Assembly: GCA_964398775.1 (NCBI GenBank)
Contig: CAYNND010000003.1
Coordinates: 3,879-67,878, forward strand
DNA length: 64,000 nucleotides
Source: an uncultured Candidatus Saccharibacteria bacterium
GTDB lineage: Bacteria > Patescibacteriota > Minisyncoccia > Phycocordibacterales > UBA2100
Direction: 5' to 3'
A program made the position numbers and the translations under genes. Position 1 is the stretch's first letter. Each line of letters opens with the position of its first letter. Positions 1,003 to 63,313 of the stretch are shown piece by piece. The notes under the pieces were generated by a model. The model searched no databases and had not been told where the DNA came from. It saw only the letters and a list, made by a program, of their open reading frames with translations.

Positions 1003-1557
1003 CTACACTCGAACATTATTACGCTCATGAATTATTTGCCGTAACTCTCCTTCATATGAGCGCAACAAATCCATTCTCCGGCGAAACACAACGCTGTATT
1101 CTGGTTCAAAGAGTTGCAATGCGACTCCGACATATGCTGCTCCTGCAGCCATGGTACCCCCAAGGAGCATGAGCGCTCCAGGTGTATTTTTCTCCACAAA
1201 GAAAAGAGCGGCCGCACCAAGATAGCTTGCGGCAGTTACCCCTAGCCATTTTTTTATAAAGGCTTCTTTGTGCTCTGCACGTGTGACCTCTCCTACTTCT
1301 GGGTGCTGTCTTGCCTCATCTTCCCATGCGAGATAGTCGGCCGCAGAATTATTCATCGCTTTCAAAAATGAGTCGAGCGCTTCTTGATATTGTTCAATTT
1401 CACTAAGAGACATCGCGTCAATATGCTTCATGCGTTCGGCGTACATGCGGTCAAATTCTTTTTCAGCCGAAAGGAGTGTGTCACGTATATCAATACTGAC
1501 AAAAGGTAGTCCCTGTTCTGCGCTTGCAGCTTTATAGTGCTCGATGCCGTTTGTCAT
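1003..1557 (-). CDS. Hypothetical membrane protein (soluble N-terminal half, C-terminal hydrophobic helices)
   Basis: 184-aa ORF. C-terminal segments LGAAALFFV and LLGGTMAAGAAYVGVAL are hydrophobic. Last gene of the co-directional aromatic operon. No recognisable family. Confidence 0.45.
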   Translation of the reverse strand: MTNGIEHYKAASAEQGLPFVSIDIRDTLLSAEKEFDRMYAERMKHIDAMSLSEIEQYQEALDSFLKAMNNSAADYLAWEDEARQHPEVGEVTRAEHKEAFIKKWLGVTAASYLGAAALFFVEKNTPGALMLLGGTMAAGAAYVGVALQLFEPEYSVVFRRRMDLLRSYEGELRQIIHERNNVRV

Positions 1558-4061: not shown

Positions 4062-5858
4062 TTAGGTGATTTTTGAAAATAATCCAGTATTGAGCACTGC
4101 GTCAACAACCTCTTCGACGCTCATAGTGTGGGTCTCAAAGCGCATATCAGCGAGTGCGGTATAAAATTCACCACGCTCGTCGCGGACACGATCGAGCTCC
4201 TGCTCAAGTGACTGTTCAGTGGTCAGACGAGGGCGATTCGTGTCGTGTCTGATGCGCGCCGCAAGCTGTTCCGTAGGAGCATCGAGGAGCACTACGATGC
4301 CTTTTTGCAAAAGATTTCTATTCTCTTCTTTTAAAACCACGCCGCCGCCAGTTGCGATAATCGACGCATCCTTCGCAACAGCTGAACGCAGCGCATCGTG
4401 TTCGAGTCGCCGAAAATGTTCCCAGCCATGAGCAGAGACAATCTCAGGAATACTCTTGCCTTCATTCCACACTATCAACTCATCTGTTTCAATGAAAGGT
4501 CGGTTTAAGCGCTGTGCGAGCACTTTCCCTATTGTTGACTTACCAGAGCCACGCATCCCAATCAGGAAAATATGCTTCTCAATTGCGTTTGTATGTGTGA
4601 GTCCGATCTGAGTTGCCGCTGTAAAAAATGTTGGGAATGTTTTATCAACAACTTCAGGATGTTCAATTTCAAGTCCGCGCAGAAGTGCTCCAGCTACCGC
4701 AAACGACATCGCCATTCGGTGGTCACCATATGTTGAAATACGTGCTGGTCGAGGATTGCCACCGTATATTGTGAGGGTATCTTGAGTGCTTTCAGTTCGG
4801 ATACCCATCTTCAGCAGCTCTGCTTCAAGTGCTTTTACTCGCTCTGTCTCTTTCACGCGCAGTGACTGAACATTGCGAAGCACTGTCTTCCCGTGGGCAA
4901 ACGCGGCAACGACTGCGAGTGTCTGCGCCTGGTCAGGGAACTCAAGCATATCGATTTCCATGGGGACGATCCCGGCACCCTGTATTGTGACAGAGCGCTC
5001 ACCGAATGTTACTTGTGCGCCCATCGCTGTACAGACATCGAGTATCTTTTTATCAGGCTGCAATGAAGTCTCTGTCAGGTTATGTAACACGAGCTCTGAA
5101 CGTGTCAGTGCAGCAAGCGCAAAAAAATAGCCAGCACTTGAGTAGTCCCCTTCAACCTGATATGCAGTCGCAGTATATGCGCCCTGTGCTGTATATGTTG
5201 CCGCAACGGCATCATATGTGGTAGTGACGCCGAAGTGCTTCATTGTATCTATCGTCATATCAACATATGGCTTTGAAACCAGATTTCCCTCGATGTGGAT
5301 GCCGTATCCACCACAAACAGGTGCTGACATGAGCAGTGCTGAAAGGTACTGACTGCTTGTATCCCCTTTCACACTACATATATTTTTCTTAAGTGTTGTA
5401 GTGCCCTGTATCCGTAGTGGTGGATACCCTTCGATACCAGAGTACGAGATATCTGCACCCAACTCTCTGAGTGCATCGACGAGATCTTTGATGGGGCGCT
5501 TATTAAGACCCGCCTCACCAGTTACATGTTTTACACCTGGAGTAAATGCAAGAAGTGGCAGAATGAACCTAATTGTTGTTCCTGAAAGCCGCGCATTGAG
5601 GGTGTATTCTTTGTCTACGATGTCTGCGTATGAGCCCTGTATGATGATTGCGCCATCTTCAGAGGTGACTTGTATGCCGAGTGCTCGGAGACAGTCTATC
5701 ATCGCCTCAATGTCGTCACTCATGAGAGGCGACTCGACGCGGACAAACCCTTTCGTGAGTGCTGCGAGCAGAAGTGCACGATTCGTATAGCTCTTTGAGC
5801 CGGGAATAGTGACTGCACCTTGTATAGTGCCGCCGTGTATTTCAATTGAGTTATTCAT
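4062..5858 (-). CDS. aroA-aroK: Bifunctional 3-phosphoshikimate 1-carboxyvinyltransferase (EPSP synthase) / shikimate kinase fusion
   Basis: 598 aa. N-terminal ~430 aa carry AroA motifs (PGSKSYTNRALLLAAL, RVKETERV, GDHRMAMSFAVAG). C-terminal ~165 aa carry a shikimate kinase P-loop (IFLIGMRGSGKSTIGKVLAQRL), plus GGGVV and a LID region. Confidence 0.85.
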   Translation of the reverse strand: MNNSIEIHGGTIQGAVTIPGSKSYTNRALLLAALTKGFVRVESPLMSDDIEAMIDCLRALGIQVTSEDGAIIIQGSYADIVDKEYTLNARLSGTTIRFILPLLAFTPGVKHVTGEAGLNKRPIKDLVDALRELGADISYSGIEGYPPLRIQGTTTLKKNICSVKGDTSSQYLSALLMSAPVCGGYGIHIEGNLVSKPYVDMTIDTMKHFGVTTTYDAVAATYTAQGAYTATAYQVEGDYSSAGYFFALAALTRSELVLHNLTETSLQPDKKILDVCTAMGAQVTFGERSVTIQGAGIVPMEIDMLEFPDQAQTLAVVAAFAHGKTVLRNVQSLRVKETERVKALEAELLKMGIRTESTQDTLTIYGGNPRPARISTYGDHRMAMSFAVAGALLRGLEIEHPEVVDKTFPTFFTAATQIGLTHTNAIEKHIFLIGMRGSGKSTIGKVLAQRLNRPFIETDELIVWNEGKSIPEIVSAHGWEHFRRLEHDALRSAVAKDASIIATGGGVVLKEENRNLLQKGIVVLLDAPTEQLAARIRHDTNRPRLTTEQSLEQELDRVRDERGEFYTALADMRFETHTMSVEEVVDAVLNTGLFSKIT

Positions 5859-5885
5859 TGTGTATGCAGTGTATCAAAAAGGCTC

Positions 5886-5923
5886 GGGAAACCCAGCAGT
5901 GCGCGTGCACGGCTGGGTTTCCC
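5886..5923. terminator. Perfect 12-bp GC-rich hairpin with flanking T-run (terminator/attenuator) between small gene B and aroA-aroK
   Basis: GGGAAACCCAGC-(14 nt)-GCTGGGTTTCCC. On the minus strand it is followed by GAGCCTTTTT and ends about 25 nt before the aroA-aroK ATG. Confidence 0.55.
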
Positions 5924-5931
5924 AGAGGAAG

Positions 5932-6129
5932 TCATTGTTGCTGTGCAGCAGCGTACTCAGCGCGTACTTCAAGCCAGAACCTGCACGACTCAAGTTCACT
6001 CATTTCCAAGTCTTCAAACATGCCTGGATAGAGCTTCCCTGATTCCCGCGCGAACTTTCGTTCGGCATCTGTGACTGGGTTTGCATTGATTTCCGCGATT
6101 GCGTCCACTTCTACATCGGAAGCAGCCAT
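5932..6129 (-). CDS. Small acidic hypothetical protein (65 aa), paralog B of a tandem pair
   Basis: Internal ATG at 6129 is preceded by a strong SD (GGAGAGGAGAG). Shares the core ...PVTDAERKF...YPGMFEDLE...ELE... with the 6261..6449 product. The longer ORF-track version (to 6495) reads through the structured leader and is unlikely. Confidence 0.5.
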   Translation of the reverse strand: MAASDVEVDAIAEINANPVTDAERKFARESGKLYPGMFEDLEMSELESCRFWLEVRAEYAAAQQQ

Positions 6130-6260
6130 GATTCTCTCCTCTCCGGTCCCTTGGTGGCCGGTGTATATATTTTTTTGAATACATACATCGAACACAAAGA
6201 TAAAATGGGCTGAGCGCTCCGCCGAAGCGAAGCGCCAGCCAAGTCGAAGGAGTCGCTGCG

Positions 6261-6449
6261 TCACTTTGTCGCGTCGGATTGCCAATCCTTGCGTGCCAAA
6301 CGAATCATCTCGTCGAGCTCCCCGGGCTCGAGGTCGGGGAAACGTTCCCCCCGTGCGTGCGCTTCGTCGCGGAATCGCTCCCGCTCCTTGTCGCTCACTG
6401 GGGTATCGTCCACAACGGCAGTGACTGCAGTTTCTGTAGTAGTGGCCAT
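6261..6449 (-). CDS. Small acidic hypothetical protein (62 aa), paralog A of a tandem pair
   Basis: ATG at 6449 preceded by SD GGAGAAGGAGG. Product MATTTETAVTAVVDDTPVSDKERERFRDEAHARGERFPDLEPGELDEMIRLARKDWQSDATK aligns with paralog B. Local GC content is clearly above the window average. Confidence 0.5.
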   Translation of the reverse strand: MATTTETAVTAVVDDTPVSDKERERFRDEAHARGERFPDLEPGELDEMIRLARKDWQSDATK

Positions 6450-6660
6450 AGGCCCTCCTTCTCCGGTCCATGAGCGGCCGGAGTAAAATGACCATATCAT
6501 CTTACTCCGACAACCCACGACCCATACCGCCGGTATGCCCCCAGAGGAGGAAACTGAACTCTCGTGAATACAGTTTCCTACGCTGGACCCTACTCTTTTA
6601 CGCTCATAAGTAAAGTGGCCGTGGGCGTCTCGCACGAGACGCCCTTGGCCAAACCCTCGT
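6450..6660 (-). promoter_or_regulatory. Highly structured GC-rich 5' leader of small gene A (three hairpins plus a 15-bp perfect palindrome)
   Basis: Hairpin GGGCGTCTCG-CAC-CGAGACGCCC (6611-6635). Hairpin AGGAAACTG..CAGTTTCCT (6551-6596). Palindrome CATACCGGCGGTATG (6523-6537). Hairpin CGGAGTAAG..TTACTCCG (6483-6515) lies immediately 5' of the SD. Confidence 0.4.
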
Positions 6661-6904
6661 CAGCCGAAGACGCTTCCATCCGTTGGGCGTGGAATCTTGT
6701 CGATATCCACTGCCCCGTCGGTAAATCGTTCATCTGCTGTTTTGGGCTGCGCACTCACAGCGGGTCTCTCATCCTTGCTGACGCCAGGCTTTGAGACGAA
6801 TGATGCGTTCCCACCATCCATAGTGCGACGTTTTTTCTTGGTCATGAGCGCCCTCGTAGACCTTGAAAGGTTCCCATCTATTACATTCCTGCTGGTCTGT
6901 AACT

Positions 6905-6940
6905 GAAAACCCCCTCCGGACGGAGGGGGTTGGGTTTTAG
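6905..6940. terminator. Bidirectional rho-independent terminator (downstream of rpsT)
   Basis: AAAA-CCCCCTCC-GGAC-GGAGGGGG-TTGGGTTTT. The 8-bp GC stem has a T-run on both strands. Confidence 0.7.
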
Positions 6941-7022
6941 AATTTTTACTCTACAACACAATCCTCTCCGTCTTCGGGGTTGTAAAATAAAAGAAGAAGT
7001 ATGTGTGTCCGCCTGTCATGGT

Positions 7023-7271
7023 CTATTTCTTAGACTTACCTGCAAGGAGCTTCGCAACTTGTGATTTCTTGCGAGCACCAGCATTTGCCTTAATGACACC
7101 GCGTTTAACGGCCTTATCAATAGCTTGGTATGCTTTATTGAGGTTTTCTTGAGTTGGCTGTGCTTTAGCCTCCTTAGTGAGGTCCTTCATTGCCTTGCGG
7201 CGGCGGTCATTAAAGACGCGCTTGCGAGACGAGTTTCGAATAGCTTCTTTTGCTGAACGTGTGATTGGCAT
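7023..7271 (-). CDS. rpsT: 30S ribosomal protein S20
   Basis: Internal start MPITRSAKEAIRNSSRKRVF... (82 aa). Basic, and it matches the S20 pattern (SAKKRxxxSxKRRxxN...AxxAIDKAxxKGxIHxNKAARxKS). The ORF-track N-terminal extension is unlikely. Confidence 0.8.
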   Translation of the reverse strand: MPITRSAKEAIRNSSRKRVFNDRRRKAMKDLTKEAKAQPTQENLNKAYQAIDKAVKRGVIKANAGARKKSQVAKLLAGKSKK

Positions 7272-7465
7272 AAAGAGGGATATTACCAAAGAAATCCAAA
7301 ACTGCAACTATCGCCCACTACTTCTGCCGAGATGGAGGTCAATCATGTCTTTTATAAAAGGTCTGAGCTTCTGCTCAAGGGTACTGTCGGTCTGCTCTGG
7401 TGAACTCATAGCGACTCGTTCCATTACTACATACTACCACAGACCCCTCATGCTACAATGCATAT

Positions 7466-15301: not shown

Positions 15302-16735
15302 TTATATTTCATCAAGAGGATCTTCGAAGATTGTCTGTACTTGGTTTGTTTGTCCTGTATTATTTTTTTGTTTTGCTTCATCATACAATACATCCTCTTC
15401 GATAAGTGTTACCGTCTCTGTTTTTGTGAAAACGTCAGTACCAGTTTTTGCTTTACACTTTATCGTAAATGTTTCTTCATTATCAATGGACGCAGATGAT
15501 ACTCGCCCACTCTTATCCGAAGAAGCGACTCCAGGACCTGTCACTGTACAGGAGCGCGCGTTTTGTGATGACCATACAACCTCTACAGTCTCTCCTGGAT
15601 ATACCTCTTGTGGCTCTACACTGAAACGCACAGATAACTTGGCGGTTGGTTTTGCTACTTGTATTTCGCAGGATTGCTTACCGACGACAACCGCACCTTT
15701 TTTACACTGGACGGTGTAGCGAGTTTTTTGTTGCGGTTTTACAACTGAAGAACCACTTGCTTCACCCTTTGTGTTAAGCGGCGCAAATGAGTTTGAAGAA
15801 CTCCCTACTGAGCGTGTCCCTGCAGGACACTCCCATTCAATACTTACTGATTCTCCTTTCGTAACTGACTCGGGATCACAAGTAAGCGTTATGCCACCTT
15901 CTGCTCCAGGGTCAGTAATTGCTGACTCCTCAGGTTTTTTTTGAAATGGATCTTGTTGCTTCATCTCAGGTGGCATACCTTGTTCCCCAGAGCCAGCCCC
16001 AGGCTGTCCTCCTCCGCTTGGTTGTTGTCCCGTCTGTGGACTGCCTTGCTGGTCTTGACCGCCTGGTGGTTGCTGCCCACCTCCTGGTGGTTGCTGCCCG
16101 CCCTGTCCTGGGTCTGCAATCGGACCACCACCTTTACACGGTGGAGTAGAAGGACTGCATGCCGCCTGACGATGTTCAATACACTGAATATGAGGACCCC
16201 AGTACGGGAAATGGAGCTGGTATTGCCCGGCAAGTCGCTTCAACACATCAACGCAGTTAACGTCAACTGCAAGTCCGTACTGATGGCAGGACTTCCCCGC
16301 AGGAGCACAACCACTCCTTCCACCACCACACATAGATGCCTGTTTTGCAGCACTTCGATAGGCACTGTTTATGCGAGGCGAGCAGCCAGAACGTGCTGCT
16401 GCATCGAAAAGCTTTGAAAGTCTGCACGCCAGACCTGAGTTGATTCCCCCTTGCCCATTCGGACCTGAAGGTACGCATTCGTTTTGTCGAGTGCATCCAT
16501 ATTTTGCGAGTGCTTGGAAGGGGTCTGTATCGCAACCACCATTTAAAATTCCCTTGTCTGAGGCTGTCGCATTGCTCATATCAATTCCCATTGAATTTAC
16601 TTGCGCGGTCTGCATTGATTCATCAGAAAACTCTTGAGTGAGGGTCACCAAAGATACGTCACCTCGAAGTGAGGCCGCGCCAACGACAAGCACTATTGCG
16701 AGCGTCGAAAAAAACCATGCGGTTTTATGCATCAC
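15302..16735 (-). CDS. Secreted VanY/M15B-like D,D-peptidase domain protein with G/Q/P linker and C-terminal A+B module
   Basis: 477 aa. Signal peptide MMHKTAWFFSTLAIVLVVGAASL. Motifs SAYRSAAKQ, SCHQYGLAVDV and LHFPYWGPH. Linker GGQQPPGGGQQPPGGQDQQGSP. C-terminal LTCDPESVTKGESVSIEWECP...YTVQCKK...QSC plus LSVRFSVEPQEVYPGETVEVVWSSQNARSCTV...FTIKC. Confidence 0.7.
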   Translation of the reverse strand: MMHKTAWFFSTLAIVLVVGAASLRGDVSLVTLTQEFSDESMQTAQVNSMGIDMSNATASDKGILNGGCDTDPFQALAKYGCTRQNECVPSGPNGQGGINSGLACRLSKLFDAAARSGCSPRINSAYRSAAKQASMCGGGRSGCAPAGKSCHQYGLAVDVNCVDVLKRLAGQYQLHFPYWGPHIQCIEHRQAACSPSTPPCKGGGPIADPGQGGQQPPGGGQQPPGGQDQQGSPQTGQQPSGGGQPGAGSGEQGMPPEMKQQDPFQKKPEESAITDPGAEGGITLTCDPESVTKGESVSIEWECPAGTRSVGSSSNSFAPLNTKGEASGSSVVKPQQKTRYTVQCKKGAVVVGKQSCEIQVAKPTAKLSVRFSVEPQEVYPGETVEVVWSSQNARSCTVTGPGVASSDKSGRVSSASIDNEETFTIKCKAKTGTDVFTKTETVTLIEEDVLYDEAKQKNNTGQTNQVQTIFEDPLDEI

Positions 16736-25621: not shown

Positions 25622-28012
25622 TTATTGAACGTCTACCTTTACAGAACGGGTGCGTGTCTCAGAACCTTTTTTACACGTGAGCGTGAATACAAGCGGCCCA
25701 GGTTTATCAGAAGTACCGGACACTTTTCCTTCATTTGTATCCTGTTTAAATCCGTTTGGACCAACCACCGAGCATGAGTCAACGTTTGCCGTCCTCCAGT
25801 TAATGGTCACTTCCTGCGTCCCGACGGCAATTTTTGCTGGTTCTGCAACAATTGAAAGTTTCATGTCTGTGCTTGTCGCAGCAGTGGGTGCGCGTTTTAC
25901 AGCAGTGGGACGCTGTGTTTGAGTGCTCCTCGGGACAACACGAACACTGCAAGAGCTCGTAGCTGAACGCTTTGCCTTTGTGCTAATGCAGCGTACTGCA
26001 TAGACCGTAGATGATTGCGGAGTTACCTTTAAACTCCCCGATGTTTTCCCTTCAACATAGAACGATTCCATCTCAGAGAGTGGCGTCCCGTTCAGATGCT
26101 TAGCAAGTGACGTGGCACGACGTGAGTTATCAGGGCATGACCACACGATAGTCGCACTCTTCCCATCTTCGACATCTTTGGGTGAGCATCGTATTTCTGG
26201 CTCAAGTGTCGTATAGTCCTCCTCTGCCTCTTCCTCCTCTTCCTCAGCAACGACGACATCTCGCTGGATTATCTTTCTTGGTTTTACAGAGATGGTTATC
26301 GGGCCGCAACATGCAGCGCCCGGGATCCCACAACTTTGCTGTTGTGGTTGTGTGTACTGAGGGTAGCTCTGTTGCGCGTAGGCATTTCCATTTATTGGCG
26401 AGCCGTCGAGTGCGGTTCCTGTGTCGTACTGTCCCATTGTTTGCTGCCCGTACGAGCCGTACCCACCCATCGTTTGCCCAGCTCCAGGAATACCGTAACC
26501 CACAACACTATATGCTGTCGTTTCTTTTGGACGAACTGTCACACTACTACCATTAATATTCCCAGAACCACCACGAAGTTCATACCGAATAGCATATGGG
26601 ATATTCCATTGAATCGTCACCTGCTCTCCCTCGGTTATTTCGCGTTTGTTAGCGTTAATACCGGCACAGTACGGAGCTGGCATATTTGGCTGCTGCAGTT
26701 GTTGATTTTGCTGAGGCTGCTGATTTTGCTGAGGCTGTGAGCCCTGTTTTGGCTGCTCTTTTGGATTACTACTTGAAGATGTTGGTCTAAATCCGCTACC
26801 ATCGTTGGTCGGTTGCTGTGGAGGCCTCTCGGGGCCTGGTGCTGGTGTAGGGTTTTTGTTTTTATCTTTTTCGGAATCAGGGGGTGTATTCCCAGATCCT
26901 CGGTGTGGGTTTGTCTGAGCAACTCGGTCAAAAGCCTCTGCAGAATTAATTTTTTTCAATTCATCGTCTAGCTTGTCTTTTTCAACACTCACAGGATTTG
27001 ACTTCGGCACCCACTCACCCTGCTCATTTTTTACAAACGTTTGATACTGACATTTACCTTGGGCATCACACGTCGCAACAATCCGTCGATTATCATCGAT
27101 ATCATGTCGAAATTCTTTTCCTGGTTCTGACTGCGCCTTTTTTGCTAACTCTGCTTGGCTTCCGGTGGCCGTTGCCGTATTTGGATTTAAGTCAGGCTTC
27201 GGACGAAGCTCTTCCTGAAGCTTTTCTGCATCAGCCTTTGTGCAAGCAACATGCCACCTCCCTTTAAACATTGGTAAGTCTTCGCGAGTTTTTCCTGTTT
27301 TCTTTTCAGCCTCAGTAAGCACGCGAGGGCGAGACTGGTCGTACCAAAATACAACTGCTGTGTTACCGCTCTTTAGTTCAGTTATCGGGCATTCTTTACG
27401 CTCAGCAACAACAGCATTCTTGAATCGAAGTTGTACGTTCAGACTCGTATTCTGATGGCATACTGCATTCATTGAAAAGCGTTGTGTCTCACCTTGAGGC
27501 TGCTGATACCCAAGTGTCATGAATGGGACAGTAATGCTCGCACCACCGCATGAGACCGCTTGCCCATCATTTGCGCTGCCATTCGTACAATTTAGTGTTG
27601 TTTGGGTACCATCTGGACAGGTTTTCTTTCCAAATATGCCCTCGCCTGTTTGGAGTGCTGTTTGACACGCATGACTCTGGGCACCACCTCCCATCTGCTG
27701 ACAAGTCGCCTGGACACTTTGGCATTGCTTCTGCGCATCTCCGAGTTTGTAACATGCTTGCGTAGCTCCATTTTCGCGAGAAGTTGTTATGTCTGCACAT
27801 TTTGGTGTACTCGAATCTGTCTGCTGTCGCTCACATGCTTGCATGACCGTCCTCCCGTTACGCTGCACCATTTTGTATTCAACTGCAGCTTCCGCAAAAC
27901 TGAGTGCGCTGAGTAAAAAAAGTGAGCAGATGAATAGAGTACGCATAGTGAGCCGCTGTATCATGGGGTAAGTGTACCACTTGGATAGACACGAGTACCA
28001 AGCATTATGCAC
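25622..28012 (-). CDS. Large secreted protein with Cys-rich N-terminal region, Q/P-rich linker and C-terminal A+B module (true start probably an internal Met near 27964/27946)
   Basis: 796 aa ORF. Signal-like MRTLFICSLFLLSALSFAEA after an internal Met. Cys-rich N region with no recognised motif. Linker QGSQPQQNQQPQQNQQLQQP. Acidic stretch VVVAEEEEEEAEEDY. C-terminal EIRCSPKDVEDGKSATIVWSCP...YAVRC...SSC plus LSIVAEPAKIAVGTQEVTINWRTANVDSCSV...FTLTC. Confidence 0.6.
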   Translation of the reverse strand: MHNAWYSCLSKWYTYPMIQRLTMRTLFICSLFLLSALSFAEAAVEYKMVQRNGRTVMQACERQQTDSSTPKCADITTSRENGATQACYKLGDAQKQCQSVQATCQQMGGGAQSHACQTALQTGEGIFGKKTCPDGTQTTLNCTNGSANDGQAVSCGGASITVPFMTLGYQQPQGETQRFSMNAVCHQNTSLNVQLRFKNAVVAERKECPITELKSGNTAVVFWYDQSRPRVLTEAEKKTGKTREDLPMFKGRWHVACTKADAEKLQEELRPKPDLNPNTATATGSQAELAKKAQSEPGKEFRHDIDDNRRIVATCDAQGKCQYQTFVKNEQGEWVPKSNPVSVEKDKLDDELKKINSAEAFDRVAQTNPHRGSGNTPPDSEKDKNKNPTPAPGPERPPQQPTNDGSGFRPTSSSSNPKEQPKQGSQPQQNQQPQQNQQLQQPNMPAPYCAGINANKREITEGEQVTIQWNIPYAIRYELRGGSGNINGSSVTVRPKETTAYSVVGYGIPGAGQTMGGYGSYGQQTMGQYDTGTALDGSPINGNAYAQQSYPQYTQPQQQSCGIPGAACCGPITISVKPRKIIQRDVVVAEEEEEEAEEDYTTLEPEIRCSPKDVEDGKSATIVWSCPDNSRRATSLAKHLNGTPLSEMESFYVEGKTSGSLKVTPQSSTVYAVRCISTKAKRSATSSCSVRVVPRSTQTQRPTAVKRAPTAATSTDMKLSIVAEPAKIAVGTQEVTINWRTANVDSCSVVGPNGFKQDTNEGKVSGTSDKPGPLVFTLTCKKGSETRTRSVKVDVQ

Positions 28013-55195: not shown

Positions 55196-55540
55196 TTGAT
55201 GAAGCAGTGCATATCTCGCCTTCTCGTTACTCTGTGCGTAGTCTCTACTTGCGTGACGGCAATGCCGCAGAAAACTGAGGCAGTTGTCTACTTTGGCGGG
55301 TCAATCGGTAGAATTATTTTTTGCATTAACAACGTTGTGTATGCAAACCTCGGAGCACCTCGTGGCGGTCCCTACCTCTGGTCACCAAAAGTAACAAAGA
55401 CATACCAATTTGGTCCACCGCGACGTTCTGGTCAGTGGCTCCTTGGTGCTGCGGGGCCAACATATTTCTGCATTGAATCAGTGCTTCCACTCATTGTGCA
55501 TCCCGGACTCCTCATTCTATTTATGGGCAGTAGCCAGTAA
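55196..55540 (+). CDS. Small secreted hydrophobic protein (114 aa), divergent from the T4SS-like cluster; second pilin-like candidate
   Basis: Signal peptide MMKQCISRLLVTLCVVSTCVTAMP. Two further hydrophobic stretches, the second C-terminal (VLPLIVHPGLLILFMG). Confidence 0.3.
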   Translation: MMKQCISRLLVTLCVVSTCVTAMPQKTEAVVYFGGSIGRIIFCINNVVYANLGAPRGGPYLWSPKVTKTYQFGPPRRSGQWLLGAAGPTYFCIESVLPLIVHPGLLILFMGSSQ

Positions 55541-62956: not shown

Positions 62957-63313
62957 CTATGCACAGTCCATGCACGTCTCGGCGCTCAAATACACAGCAA
63001 GTCGCTCCTTTTCTATATCTGCTCCACAAATTGAGCAGATGCCATAGGTTCCTTTTGCCACACGCTCAAGAGCACGTTCAATAGACTTCATTTGTGTTAC
63101 AAGCTCTATCGCCACTGCCTTGTTTGTTTCTTGCGCACTATCGAAATCACCCATCTCATTTAAATCTCCAGGTTCAGGATGTATATCAAGTGGTGCTCCT
63201 ACAAAACCTGTGCCGTCATGTGCATGAAGATATCCAATGTCAGTCAGTTCAAGCTCGATACGTGCAAGCTCGCGCTGGAGTAATTCTTGGATACTTCCCT
63301 GTTGATGCTTCAT
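62957..63313 (-). CDS. DksA/TraR-family C4 zinc-finger protein
   Basis: 118 aa. Coiled-coil N-terminus. C-terminal CSICGADIEKERLAVYLSAETCMDC (CxxC-x17-CxxC). Confidence 0.7.
   Translation of the reverse strand: MKHQQGSIQELLQRELARIELELTDIGYLHAHDGTGFVGAPLDIHPEPGDLNEMGDFDSAQETNKAVAIELVTQMKSIERALERVAKGTYGICSICGADIEKERLAVYLSAETCMDCA

What the first reader, a model, noticed from the sequence alone, without database searches (positions are those of the whole stretch)
5860..6660. GC-rich insert with two tandem paralogous small acidic genes, each behind a strong SD and a hairpin-rich leader
Two ORFs of 62 and 65 aa share a core (PV(S/T)D.ER..F....G..(F/Y)P...(D/E)LE..EL(D/E)). Each follows a conserved CCGGCC...GGACCGGAGA(A/G)GAG(A/G)G SD region. 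They lie in a segment that is visibly more GC-rich than the rest of the window. The leader of gene A stacks three hairpins and a perfect 15-bp palindrome, CATACCGGCGGTATG, an operator-like site. Gene B is followed by a perfect 12-bp-stem terminator only ~25 nt before aroA-aroK. The function is unknown. The composition and strong SDs look foreign for this genome (rpsT, dnaA and others lack an SD).
Basis: seen in the sequence. Interest (0 to 1): 0.55.

Follow-up and report, generated by a model that had tools for sequence, protein, structure and literature searches.

The report
Swappable orphan mini-gene pair before aroA
Two real but orphan small acidic protein genes, with a strongly folded RNA leader, have replaced other genes in a variable slot between an aromatic-amino-acid attenuator and the shikimate-pathway operon of an uncultured ultra-small (CPR) bacterium; near-identical strains carry very different versions of them, and their function is unknown.

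Summary
On the minus strand, gene A (6449..6261, 62 aa) and gene B (6129..5932, 65 aa) are paralogs (about 30% identity). They share a CCGGCC-N6-GGACCGGAGA 5'UTR motif with a strong SD. They lie in the most GC-rich kilobase of the window.

Both are protein-coding: purifying selection, and no stop codons in the sense frame only. Both are predicted as acidic three-helix proteins of about 7 kDa. Among 1.84 billion representative proteins, relatives occur only in this narrow Parcubacteria-like clade. No family, fold, phage or plasmid match was found.

The 758-nt module (6616..5859) is a lineage-specific replacement. Sister lineages carry an 80-aa and a 314-aa gene in the same slot.

The slot lies downstream of rpsT, a conserved aromatic leader-peptide attenuator (MTGGHTYFFFYFTTPKTERIVL plus antiterminator and terminator) and a third small gene, C0.

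The 216-nt leader of A forms five hairpins (z = -7.1), with structure-preserving substitutions.

Between strains whose flanks are 99-100% identical, the B body is 67% identical (dS saturated). A behaves likewise in another strain.

Host genes are leaderless and lack an SD. Other small genes in this slot are also SD-led and GC-rich, so those two traits do not prove foreign origin. Protein function remains unknown.

The parts
7023..7271 (-). rpsT (ribosomal protein S20). Leaderless: TGGTAATAT box at 7288..7280, 8 nt before the ATG.
   Evidence: Pfam Ribosomal_S20p on the identical or orthologous genes. Promoter spacing.
6951..7019 (-). Aromatic leader peptide ORF MTGGHTYFFFYFTTPKTERIVL. It starts 3 nt after the rpsT stop.
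   Evidence: Sub-threshold Rfam Phe_leader match, 32.5 bits, E = 4e-4. Homologous YF(W/F)FYF peptides lie upstream of aro operons in 7 other CPR loci. Nearly invariant in L012, L146 and L147.
6919..6972 (-). Antiterminator: arm 6972..6950 pairs with arm 6941..6919, which overlaps the 5' arm of the terminator.
   Evidence: Inverted repeat I1, 23 nt, 83% complementary. -23.9 kcal/mol.
6904..6931 (-). Attenuator terminator: stem 6931..6908 plus U4 at 6907..6904.
   Evidence: -20.1 kcal/mol.
6660..6845 (-). C0: a 61-aa basic (pI 9.6), low-complexity protein, SD-led. Older than the A-B module; a 71-aa homolog is present in L146.
   Evidence: omega 0.21 with third-position bias. Relatives only in this lineage. 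34% identity to the L146 71-aa ORF, E = 0.008.
6617..6650 (-). H1: terminator hairpin of C0. It is followed by T5-6 in L144 and L146, but by a degenerate ACTTTACTT here.
   Evidence: -28.9 kcal/mol, z = -4.9. Two double compensatory pairs against L146. Marks the end of homology with L144.
5859..6616 (-). Lineage-specific replacement module (758 nt): hairpins H2-H5, gene A, its terminator, gene B, its terminator, and the aroA promoter.
   Evidence: blastn window against L144: homology ends at 6617 and resumes at the aroAK start. L144 carries 1345 nt with an 80-aa and a 314-aa gene instead.
6465..6616 (-). Structured leader of A: H2 6616..6587, H3 6586..6541, H4 (palindrome) 6537..6523, H5 6522..6465.
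   Evidence: MFE -105.3, z = -7.1. L012 substitutions hit 12 of 146 paired against 12 of 42 unpaired columns (Fisher p = 0.0013). 9 of 10 affected pairs are kept, 2 by double changes. Coordinates.
6491..6499 (-). Candidate extended -10 promoter TGATATGGT for gene A, inside H5. It would give a 5'UTR of about 35 nt.
   Evidence: One of only three TGnTAnnnT matches on this strand in 5800..7400; the other two are the rpsT and aroA boxes. Function is inferred.
6454..6481 (-). 5'UTR motif of A: CCGGCC-N6-GGACCGG stem-loop, then the AAGGAGG SD.
   Evidence: -18.2 kcal/mol for the UTR.
6261..6449 (-). Gene A: 62 aa, pI 4.6, predicted three helices.
   Evidence: Window against L137: dS 0.71, dN 0.25, omega 0.35, no stops in the sense frame only. 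AlphaFold pLDDT 68. Homologs P0002, P0003, P0004.
6208..6240 (-). Terminator of A, with a U-rich tail to 6196.
   Evidence: -28.5 kcal/mol, z = -3.8.
6134..6161 (-). 5'UTR motif of B: CCGGCC-N6-GGACCGG, then the GAGGAGAG SD.
5932..6129 (-). Gene B: 65 aa, pI 4.2, predicted three helices. The window carries the divergent allele B1.
   Evidence: omega 0.08-0.15, third-position bias 15/15/37. AlphaFold pLDDT 81, pTM 0.67. Only 66.8% nt identity to L014-16 between flanks of 99-100%.
5876..5927 (-). Terminator of B: stem 5927..5883, U5 at 5880..5876.
   Evidence: -34.1 kcal/mol, z = -6.9.
5868..5876 (-). Extended -10 box TGATACACT, 9 nt before the aroA ATG. Gives aroAK its own, nearly leaderless, promoter.
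   Evidence: Same TGGTACACT-type box and spacing as other genes of the window. Inferred, not mapped.
4062..5858 (-). aroA-aroK fusion, first gene of the operon aroAK, aroC, chorismate mutase, aminotransferase.
   Evidence: Pfam on orthologs..

Best explanation
WHAT IT IS. The segment 6616..5859 is a lineage-specific accessory module. In one narrow clade of a Parcubacteria-like (CPR) bacterium it has replaced the genes that normally occupy a variable slot. That slot lies between the terminator of C0, itself just downstream of the aromatic-amino-acid leader-peptide attenuator, and the aroA-aroK operon.

The module holds two tandem paralogous cistrons, A and B. Each consists of:
- a short 5' stem-loop (CCGGCC..GGACCGG);
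- a strong Shine-Dalgarno sequence;
- an ORF for an acidic three-helix protein of about 7 kDa;
- an intrinsic-terminator-like hairpin.

A conserved array of hairpins (H2-H5) precedes the module.

HOW IT PROBABLY WORKS (inferred).
1. Unlike the leaderless host genes, A and B are translated from leadered, SD-dependent mRNAs.
2. They are transcribed from an extended -10 box embedded in H5, and/or by read-through from the rpsT, leader-peptide and C0 transcript. The U-tract of the C0 terminator has decayed in this lineage.
3. In the read-through case their expression would rise when Phe- or Tyr-tRNA is scarce.
4. The hairpins act as terminators or insulators and as mRNA end-protectors.
5. The last, very strong hairpin shields aroAK, which restarts from its own promoter.
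6. The proteins are too small for catalysis and show no DNA-binding fold. They most likely act by binding another protein. The target is unknown.

ALLELE EXCHANGE. The ORF bodies are exchanged between strains by homologous recombination anchored in the conserved flanks.
For: - Paralogy and the shared 5'UTR motif.
- Coding status: omega 0.08-0.35, third-position bias, open only in the sense frame.
- Same three-helix topology in both AlphaFold models, pLDDT 68 and 81.
- Family restricted to this clade among 5.8 billion clusters and 1.84 billion representatives.
- Replacement shown by a graded series of relatives. L147 (AroAK 59% identical): attenuator, 79-aa, 313-aa, aroAK. L146 (75%): rpsT, leader peptide, C0-like, 80-aa, 316-aa, aroAK. 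L144 (83%): C0, H1, 80-aa, 314-aa, aroAK. L012 (92%) and the window: C0, H1, H2-H5, A, B, aroAK.
- Structured leader with structure-preserving substitutions.
- Terminator hairpins.
- Leaderless host against SD-led module.
- Attenuator anatomy and conservation.
- Allele mosaic.
Against: - There is no expression data. Promoter, read-through and insulation roles are inferred from sequence only.
- B has no recognisable promoter of its own.
- No donor or relative was found outside the clade, so the origin (foreign or de novo) is unknown.
- Elevated GC and SD use are shared by native small genes in the same slot of sister lineages, which weakens the 'foreign' inference.
- omega for A between the window and L012 is only 0.54-0.58, based on 26 substitutions.
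- The allele mosaic rests on short metagenome contigs. Chimeric assembly is not formally excluded, although three independent assemblies agree.
- Nothing indicates what the proteins bind.
Confidence: 0.6

Rival explanations
1. A and B are regulators of aromatic amino-acid biosynthesis. They would sit under the Phe/Tyr leader-peptide attenuator and functionally replace the 80-aa and 314-aa genes that occupy the slot in sister lineages. They might, for example, bind and modulate AroAK or another shikimate-pathway enzyme.
For: - The position is directly downstream of a strongly conserved attenuator and upstream of aroAK.
- In relatives the slot genes are operon members; the 314-aa gene overlaps the aroAK start by ATGA.
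- The U-tract of the C0 terminator has decayed in the lineage with the module.
Against: - There is no sequence or profile similarity to the replaced genes (hhalign E = 0.62).
- Three terminator-like hairpins lie between the attenuator and aroA.
- aroA has its own promoter box.
- Very divergent alleles in near-identical strains are unusual for a housekeeping regulator.
Confidence: 0.15
2. The module is a selfish or conflict-related cassette. It could be a moron-like import from an unsampled CPR phage or plasmid, or an immunity, antitoxin or anti-defence type of small acidic protein kept polymorphic by frequency-dependent selection.
For: - A promoter-gene-terminator style unit with deviant composition.
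- An orphan family.
- Old, highly divergent alleles (B: dS saturated; A: 0.71) shuffled independently among strains with 99-100% identical flanks.
- Synonymous divergence of A between the window and L012 (0.24) is far below that of aroAK and aroC (about 1.0). This suggests spread between lineages after they split.
Against: - No hit in PADLOC, PHROGs, IMG/VR, INPHARED phages or PLSDB plasmids.
- No toxin-like partner, no integrase or transposase, and no flanking repeats.
- Purifying rather than positive selection within alleles (omega 0.1-0.4).
Confidence: 0.2
3. The region is a non-coding structured RNA, or terminator debris, and the ORFs are accidental.
For: Extreme folding energy and covariation in the 216-nt leader. 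A high GC content favours spurious ORFs on both strands.
Against: - A and B stay open in every strain despite 33-40% nucleotide divergence.
- They show third-position-biased substitution and omega well below 1 in the sense frame only.
- They have SD sequences at the correct spacing.
- They give confident helical models.
Confidence: 0.03

Closest known systems
Morons of temperate phages: autonomous promoter-gene-terminator units inserted between genes, with deviant base composition (from my own knowledge, Hendrix and colleagues)
   Same: - Small ORFs, each followed by an intrinsic-terminator-like hairpin.
- At least A is preceded by a promoter-like box.
- Composition differs from that of the neighbours.
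- Inserted between unrelated genes.
- Orphan function.
   Different: - Located in a chromosomal biosynthetic leader region, not in a prophage.
- No phage genes or phage homologs.
- Tandem paralogs.
- Preceded by a 150-nt hairpin array.
- B lacks an evident promoter.
Leader-peptide transcription attenuators of amino-acid operons (pheA/pheL type, Rfam RF01859). This applies to the upstream element 7019..6904, not to genes A and B.
   Same: - A short ORF with a run of regulatory codons (YFFFYF).
- 1:2, 2:3 and 3:4 alternative pairings.
- A terminator with a U-run.
- Placement upstream of aromatic biosynthesis genes.
   Different: - Below the Rfam gathering score (32.5 against 55).
- The leader ORF has no SD. 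It starts 3 nt after the rpsT stop in this lineage, after rplT in others, and directly behind a promoter in L004 and L007.
- Here the attenuator is separated from aroA by about 1.05 kb carrying three small genes.
The B. subtilis anti-TRAP (rtpA) unit: a small regulatory protein whose expression reports tRNA(Trp) charging through leader elements (from my own knowledge)
   Same: A small protein (53-65 aa) encoded behind an amino-acid-sensing leader and linked to aromatic amino-acid metabolism. It would be a conceptual analogue if the attenuator controls A and B.
   Different: - No sequence or fold relation.
- Anti-TRAP is Cys-rich and binds zinc, whereas A and B are acidic helical proteins.
- No TRAP and no T-box here (Rfam scans).
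- Regulation is untested.
Polymorphic cassette loci with conserved boundary sequences, such as mosaic modules of lambdoid phages and pherotype or immunity loci (from my own knowledge)
   Same: Sharply bounded, anciently diverged alleles lie between near-identical flanks, and the two genes assort independently.
   Different: - No secretion signal, receptor or toxin partner.
- Only two alleles of each gene are known so far.
- The mechanism of exchange is inferred from contigs.

Membership tests
Leader-peptide attenuator (Phe/aromatic type; the upstream element) | Short ORF with clustered codons of the regulating amino acid(s) | tested here: met
   MTGGHTYFFFYFTTPKTERIVL has 6 consecutive aromatic codons. 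Homologous peptides occur in L001, L002, L003, L004, L005, L007, L012 and L146. Only 1 trivial hit appeared in 120 unrelated control contigs.
Leader-peptide attenuator (Phe/aromatic type; the upstream element) | Intrinsic terminator, plus a mutually exclusive antiterminator that overlaps its 5' arm | tested here: met
   Terminator 6931..6908 with U4, -20.1 kcal/mol. Antiterminator 6972..6950 x 6941..6919, -23.9 kcal/mol. The Phe codons pair with region 2 in the MFE fold.
Leader-peptide attenuator (Phe/aromatic type; the upstream element) | Reaches the curated Rfam score for Phe_leader (RF01859) | tested here: not met
   32.5 bits against a gathering score of 55. It works like a Phe leader but is not a member of that gammaproteobacterial family.
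Leader-peptide attenuator (Phe/aromatic type; the upstream element) | Read-through responds to the charging of the cognate tRNA | not testable with these tools
   Needs in vitro or in vivo transcription assays.
Moron-like autonomous cassette | Own promoter upstream of the ORF | tested here: inconclusive
   A has a TGATATGGT extended -10 box at 6499..6491. B has no TGnTAnnnT or TAnnnT box in its 130-nt leader apart from one in the terminator tail. The sigma-70 consensus scan found nothing on this strand.
Moron-like autonomous cassette | Factor-independent terminator downstream of the ORF | tested here: met
   Hairpins after A (-28.5) and after B (-34.1, U5), with z = -3.8 and -6.9.
Moron-like autonomous cassette | Base composition differs from the neighbours | tested here: met
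   55% against 46% GC. GC3 up to 0.65 against 0.35-0.44. Native small genes in the slot share this trait.
Moron-like autonomous cassette | Resides in a prophage or phage genome | tested here: not met
   The neighbours are rpsT, ruvA and aro genes. No PHROG, IMG/VR or INPHARED match.
Type II antitoxin / toxin-antitoxin pair | Adjacent toxin gene and membership of a known antitoxin family or DNA-binding fold (RHH, HTH, Phd, AbrB) | tested here: not met
   No Pfam, NCBIfam or PADLOC hit at E <= 10. No PDB sequence or fold match. The neighbours are a paralog and aroA.
Diversity-generating retroelement target (to explain the hypervariable ORFs) | Variation confined to adenine positions of a nearby template repeat, with a reverse transcriptase nearby | tested here: not met
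   Substitutions are biased to the third codon position (15/15/37) with indels. There is no second copy of A or B in the 64 kb.
Known structured RNA family (leader of A) | Match to an Rfam covariance model | tested here: not met
   No hit above or near threshold in 5800..7050 other than Phe_leader. The rest are chance miRNA-model hits at hairpins.

The most novel reading that the evidence does not exclude
The interval between attenuator and aroA would be a dedicated cassette slot in these CPR bacteria. Small SD-led genes, framed by conserved hairpin boundary sequences, would be gained, replaced and allele-swapped by recombination. A and B would be a balanced polymorphism: ancient alleles kept by frequency-dependent selection, for example in phage or host-cell interaction. 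Their expression would be wired to aromatic amino-acid starvation through the leader-peptide attenuator. That would be a previously undescribed coupling of a metabolic sensor to a strain-variable small-protein locus.
Probability: 0.12. Interest if true: 0.75.

Novelty: new variant of a known kind. Interest (0 to 1): 0.5.

Why it matters
CPR (Patescibacteria) genomes are full of unannotated small genes, and almost nothing is known about how they are regulated. This locus offers four things.

1. A clean, datable gene replacement in a biosynthetic leader region, traced through four steps of relatedness.
2. An orphan family of small acidic helical proteins that is demonstrably under selection, yet carried as very different alleles by otherwise near-identical strains.
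3. A strongly structured 5' region with covariation in an organism whose ordinary genes have no 5'UTR at all.
4. As context, evidence that classical ribosome-mediated attenuation with an aromatic leader peptide is widespread in CPR aro operons. It is fed by translation re-initiation after ribosomal-protein genes, or by leaderless initiation.

The last point makes translation-transcription coupling in SD-poor, leaderless bacteria directly testable.

Tried and rejected
- Family searches for A, B and C0: Pfam, PHROGs, NCBIfam and PADLOC gave nothing at E <= 10.
- PDB sequence profile: nothing.
- Mobile-element searches: IMG/VR protein and DNA-pattern scans, INPHARED phages and PLSDB plasmids gave nothing.
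- Metagenome DNA scan with CCGGCC-N6-GGACCGGAGA: too unspecific. It returned 120 unrelated GC-rich contigs, none related by blastn or tblastn.
- Pseudogene debris: no remnant of aroF or aroB, or of the 80-aa or 314-aa genes, in the module.
- Origin of A and B from the C-terminus of the 314-aa protein (a weak BLAST hint around YPNLIAG..DE): not supported by hhalign, E = 0.62.
- C0 as a third paralog of A and B: not supported, E about 1.
- REP, MITE or other repeated element: no other copy of any hairpin in the 64 kb and no flanking direct or inverted repeats.
- DGR hypermutation: rejected by the substitution pattern.
- Silent donor copies of A or B for cassette switching: none in the window; the rest of the genome was not available.
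- Shared operator core ACCGGCGGT in the window and L146: within chance expectation.
- Literature: no paper combining leader-peptide attenuation with CPR was found.
Full report
**1. Observation.**
- Gene A is 6449..6261 (62 aa). Gene B is 6129..5932 (65 aa).
- A and B align over 45 residues at 33% identity, E = 3e-6. They share P17, R23, R27, F37, E41 and R53 across all alleles.
- The motif CCGGCC-N6-GGACCGGAGARGAGRG occurs only at the two gene fronts. Shuffled sequence gave no match.
- The stretch 5859..6899 has 54.8% GC against 46.3% for the window. It is the most GC-rich kilobase, z about 3.
- The palindrome CATACCGGCGGTATG (6537..6523) is unique in the window.
- A 12-bp perfect stem inside a hairpin of -34.1 kcal/mol (5927..5883) is followed by U5. 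It ends 17 nt before the aroA ATG.

**2. Are the ORFs genes?**
Related contigs were recovered through the two peptides:
- L012, about 87% nucleotide identity;
- L013, identical to the window;
- L014-L016 and L137, near-identical strains.

Codon-aware comparison shows purifying selection.
- For B (window against L014), dS is saturated, dN is 0.30-0.35 and omega is 0.08-0.15. Differences by codon position are 15/15/37.
- For A (window against L137), dS is 0.71, dN is 0.25 and omega is 0.35.
- Only the sense frames are free of stop codons.

A third ORF, C0 (6845..6660, 61 aa, pI 9.6), also looks coding, with omega 0.21 and a position pattern of 4/9/17. One antisense frame is not excluded for C0.

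AlphaFold gives the same three-helix topology for A (pLDDT 68) and B (pLDDT 81, pTM 0.67). Both are acidic, with pI 4.2-4.8, and hydrophilic.

**3. Distribution.**
- A profile search of 5.8 billion clusters, and an exhaustive HMMER search of 1.84 billion representatives, found only members of this clade. The two other hits were repeat artefacts.
- C0 is likewise restricted.
- Pfam, PHROGs, NCBIfam, PADLOC, PDB sequences, PDB and BFVD folds, IMG/VR, INPHARED and PLSDB gave no match.

**4. The host and its translation signals.**
The best AroAK relatives are Parcubacteria or Patescibacteria metagenome-assembled genomes.
- Of 53 long ORFs in the window, only one has a 5-mer SD core.
- Many ORFs instead have TGnTAnnnT ending 6-9 nt before the ATG. 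Sixteen sites sit at exactly 6 nt, where about 1.7 are expected. This is the signature of leaderless mRNAs.
- A, B and C0 are therefore exceptional in being leadered and SD-dependent.
- aroA has such a box, TGATACACT at 5876..5868, 9 nt before its ATG. So the hairpin after B need not silence it. This is an inference.

**5. What lies upstream.**
Three nucleotides after the rpsT stop begins a 22-codon ORF, MTGGHTYFFFYFTTPKTERIVL (7019..6951).
- Its Phe codons pair with a downstream GGAGAGG segment.
- That segment is also part of a 23-nt antiterminator (6972..6950 x 6941..6919, -23.9 kcal/mol).
- The antiterminator competes with a terminator (6931..6908, -20.1 kcal/mol, U4).
- Rfam's Phe_leader model matches below threshold, at 32.5 bits, E = 4e-4.

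Homologous peptides (YFWFYF and variants) with terminators lie just upstream of the first aro gene in L001-L005 and L007. They often follow rplT directly, or sit directly behind a promoter. A control set of 120 unrelated contigs gave only one trivial hit.

The element is almost invariant between the window, L012, L146 and L147, although their AroAK proteins are only 59-92% identical. This is a classical attenuator in a phylum where my literature search found none described.

**6. The module is a replacement.**
A graded series of relatives defines the slot between attenuator and aroAK:

| Locus | AroAK identity | Gene order in the slot |
|---|---|---|
| L147 | 59% | attenuator, 79-aa gene, 313-aa gene, aroAK |
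| L146 | 75% | rpsT, leader peptide, C0-like (71 aa), 80-aa type, 316-aa, aroAK |
| L144 | 83% | C0, H1 + T5, 80-aa, terminator, 314-aa, aroAK |
| L012 and window | 92% / 100% | C0, H1, H2-H5, A, B, aroAK |

- Nucleotide homology between the window and L144 ends at 6617, the end of H1, and resumes at the aroA start.
- So 758 nt (6616..5859) have replaced 1345 nt.
- The displaced genes have no Pfam family and are absent from the window.
- A and B are not detectably derived from them.
- C0 and the 80-aa genes of sister lineages are also SD-led and GC-rich: 49-57% GC, GC3 up to 0.69, against a backbone of 46-48%. GC and SD therefore characterise the slot rather than prove recent foreign origin.

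**7. Structured RNA.**
The 216 nt between the C0 stop and the A start fold into five consecutive hairpins: H1 6650..6617, H2 6616..6587, H3 6586..6541, H4 6537..6523 and H5 6522..6465.
- The fold is -105.3 kcal/mol against -72.6 +/- 4.6 for shuffles, z = -7.1.
- Against L012, substitutions hit 12 of 146 paired columns and 12 of 42 unpaired columns (p = 0.0013).
- 9 of 10 affected pairs remain paired, 2 of them through double changes.
- H1 also shows two double compensations against L146.
- H1 is the C0 terminator. Its U-tract is intact in L144 and L146 but degenerate here (ACUUUACUU).
- H5 contains the only extended -10 match in the leader (6499..6491).

No Rfam family matches, and no hairpin recurs elsewhere in the window.

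**8. Allele mosaic.**
Between the window and L014-L016:
- C0, both leaders, the B terminator and the aroA start are 98.6-100% identical;
- the B body is 66.8% identical, with indels.

In L137 the B body and all flanks match L014, but the A body (codons about 10-59) is only 61% identical in protein.

The alleles combine independently: A1B1 in the window, A1B2 in L014 and A2B2 in L137.

Divergence between the window and L012 is also uneven. dS is about 1.0 for aroAK and aroC, 0.4-0.5 for rpsT and C0, and 0.24 for A. The region is thus a recombination hot spot with an unsampled reservoir of alleles.

A diversity-generating retroelement is excluded by the codon-position pattern. One caveat remains: these are short metagenome contigs. 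However, three independent assemblies share A1B2, and two share A1B1.

**9. Mechanism.**
Shown by computation:
- the gene structure and coding status;
- the paralogy;
- the conserved secondary structures;
- the replacement boundaries;
- the allele mosaic.

Inferred:
- (a) A and B are translated from SD-led mRNAs that start at a promoter in H5 and/or continue from the attenuator-controlled rpsT, leader-peptide and C0 transcript.
- (b) The hairpins terminate or insulate transcription and protect the mRNA ends.
- (c) aroAK restarts at its own leaderless promoter.
- (d) The 7-kDa acidic helical proteins act by binding a partner.
- (e) Allele exchange occurs by homologous recombination in the conserved flanks.

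The biological role is unknown. I rate a conflict or selfish role at about 0.2 and an aro-regulatory role at about 0.15.

**10. Comparison with known systems.**
- The cassettes work like phage morons, as terminator-bounded units of odd composition, but they fail the prophage criterion.
- The upstream element works like a pheL-type attenuator but is not a member of Rfam RF01859.
- Antitoxin, DGR-target and repeated-element readings were tested and not met.

The family itself is new, but the kind of thing (a lineage-specific small accessory gene cassette) is known. Hence 'new variant of a known kind', with moderate interest. The attenuator and the leaderless context, noticed in passing, may be the more general result.

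Noticed in passing
window 7019..6904 (-); also L001 2952-3023, L005 2801-2878, L007 3771-3839, L004 3916-3981, L003 3700-3798 and 9392-9469, L002 1780-1845, L146 2229-2294: A conserved aromatic leader-peptide attenuator (YF[WF]FYF-type peptides with antiterminator and terminator) lies upstream of aro operons in many CPR lineages. The leader ORF has no SD. It starts a few nucleotides after a ribosomal-protein gene stop (rpsT or rplT), or right behind a promoter. My literature search found no description of this for CPR.
   Followed up: partly
whole window, e.g. 15302..16732, 25622..27964, 55199..55540, 62957..63313: Almost all genes lack an SD (1 of 53). They carry an extended -10 box (TGnTAnnnT) ending 6-9 nt before the ATG, which implies predominantly leaderless mRNAs in this genome.
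   Followed up: partly
L144 527-1471, L146 3036-3986, L147 487-1428; small partner genes L144 208-450, L146 2727-2968, L147 170-409: In sister lineages an uncharacterised 313-316-aa protein occupies the slot. It has no Pfam hit and its stop overlaps the aroAK start (ATGA). An acidic 80-aa protein with a conserved 5' hairpin and SD accompanies it. Both are absent from the 64-kb window. The larger protein could be an unrecognised shikimate-pathway component.
   Followed up: partly
window 6845..6660 (-); L146 2395-2610: C0 is a basic, low-complexity 61-aa protein (conserved N-terminus M-x-K-x-K-R-R ... N-x-ASFV). It is the first cistron after the attenuator and is older than the A-B module. It is absent in L147. 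Function unknown.
   Followed up: partly
window 6877..6842 (-): An 11-codon mini-ORF (MGTFQGLRGRS) has a stop that overlaps the C0 start (ATGA). It is kept with 2 amino-acid changes in L012, but not in this form in L146. It may be a re-initiation ramp or chance.
   Followed up: no
window against L012 (L012 856-5144): Synonymous divergence is very uneven along the locus: aroAK 1.08, aroC 0.91, rpsT 0.41, C0 0.52, A 0.24, B saturated. This indicates different histories, by recombination or strong RNA-level constraint, within 5 kb.
   Followed up: partly
L003 9392-9469: A second aromatic leader-like peptide (MNQQTQSYWFYFTSQPGRLRNGLES) lies about 2.7 kb downstream of the end of the aroAK match in the same contig. 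It may control another aromatic-pathway unit.
   Followed up: no
window 1003..1557 (-): A 184-aa ORF at the end of the aro operon, after the aminotransferase, has no Pfam hit. It is conserved in L144 (5766-6320).
   Followed up: no
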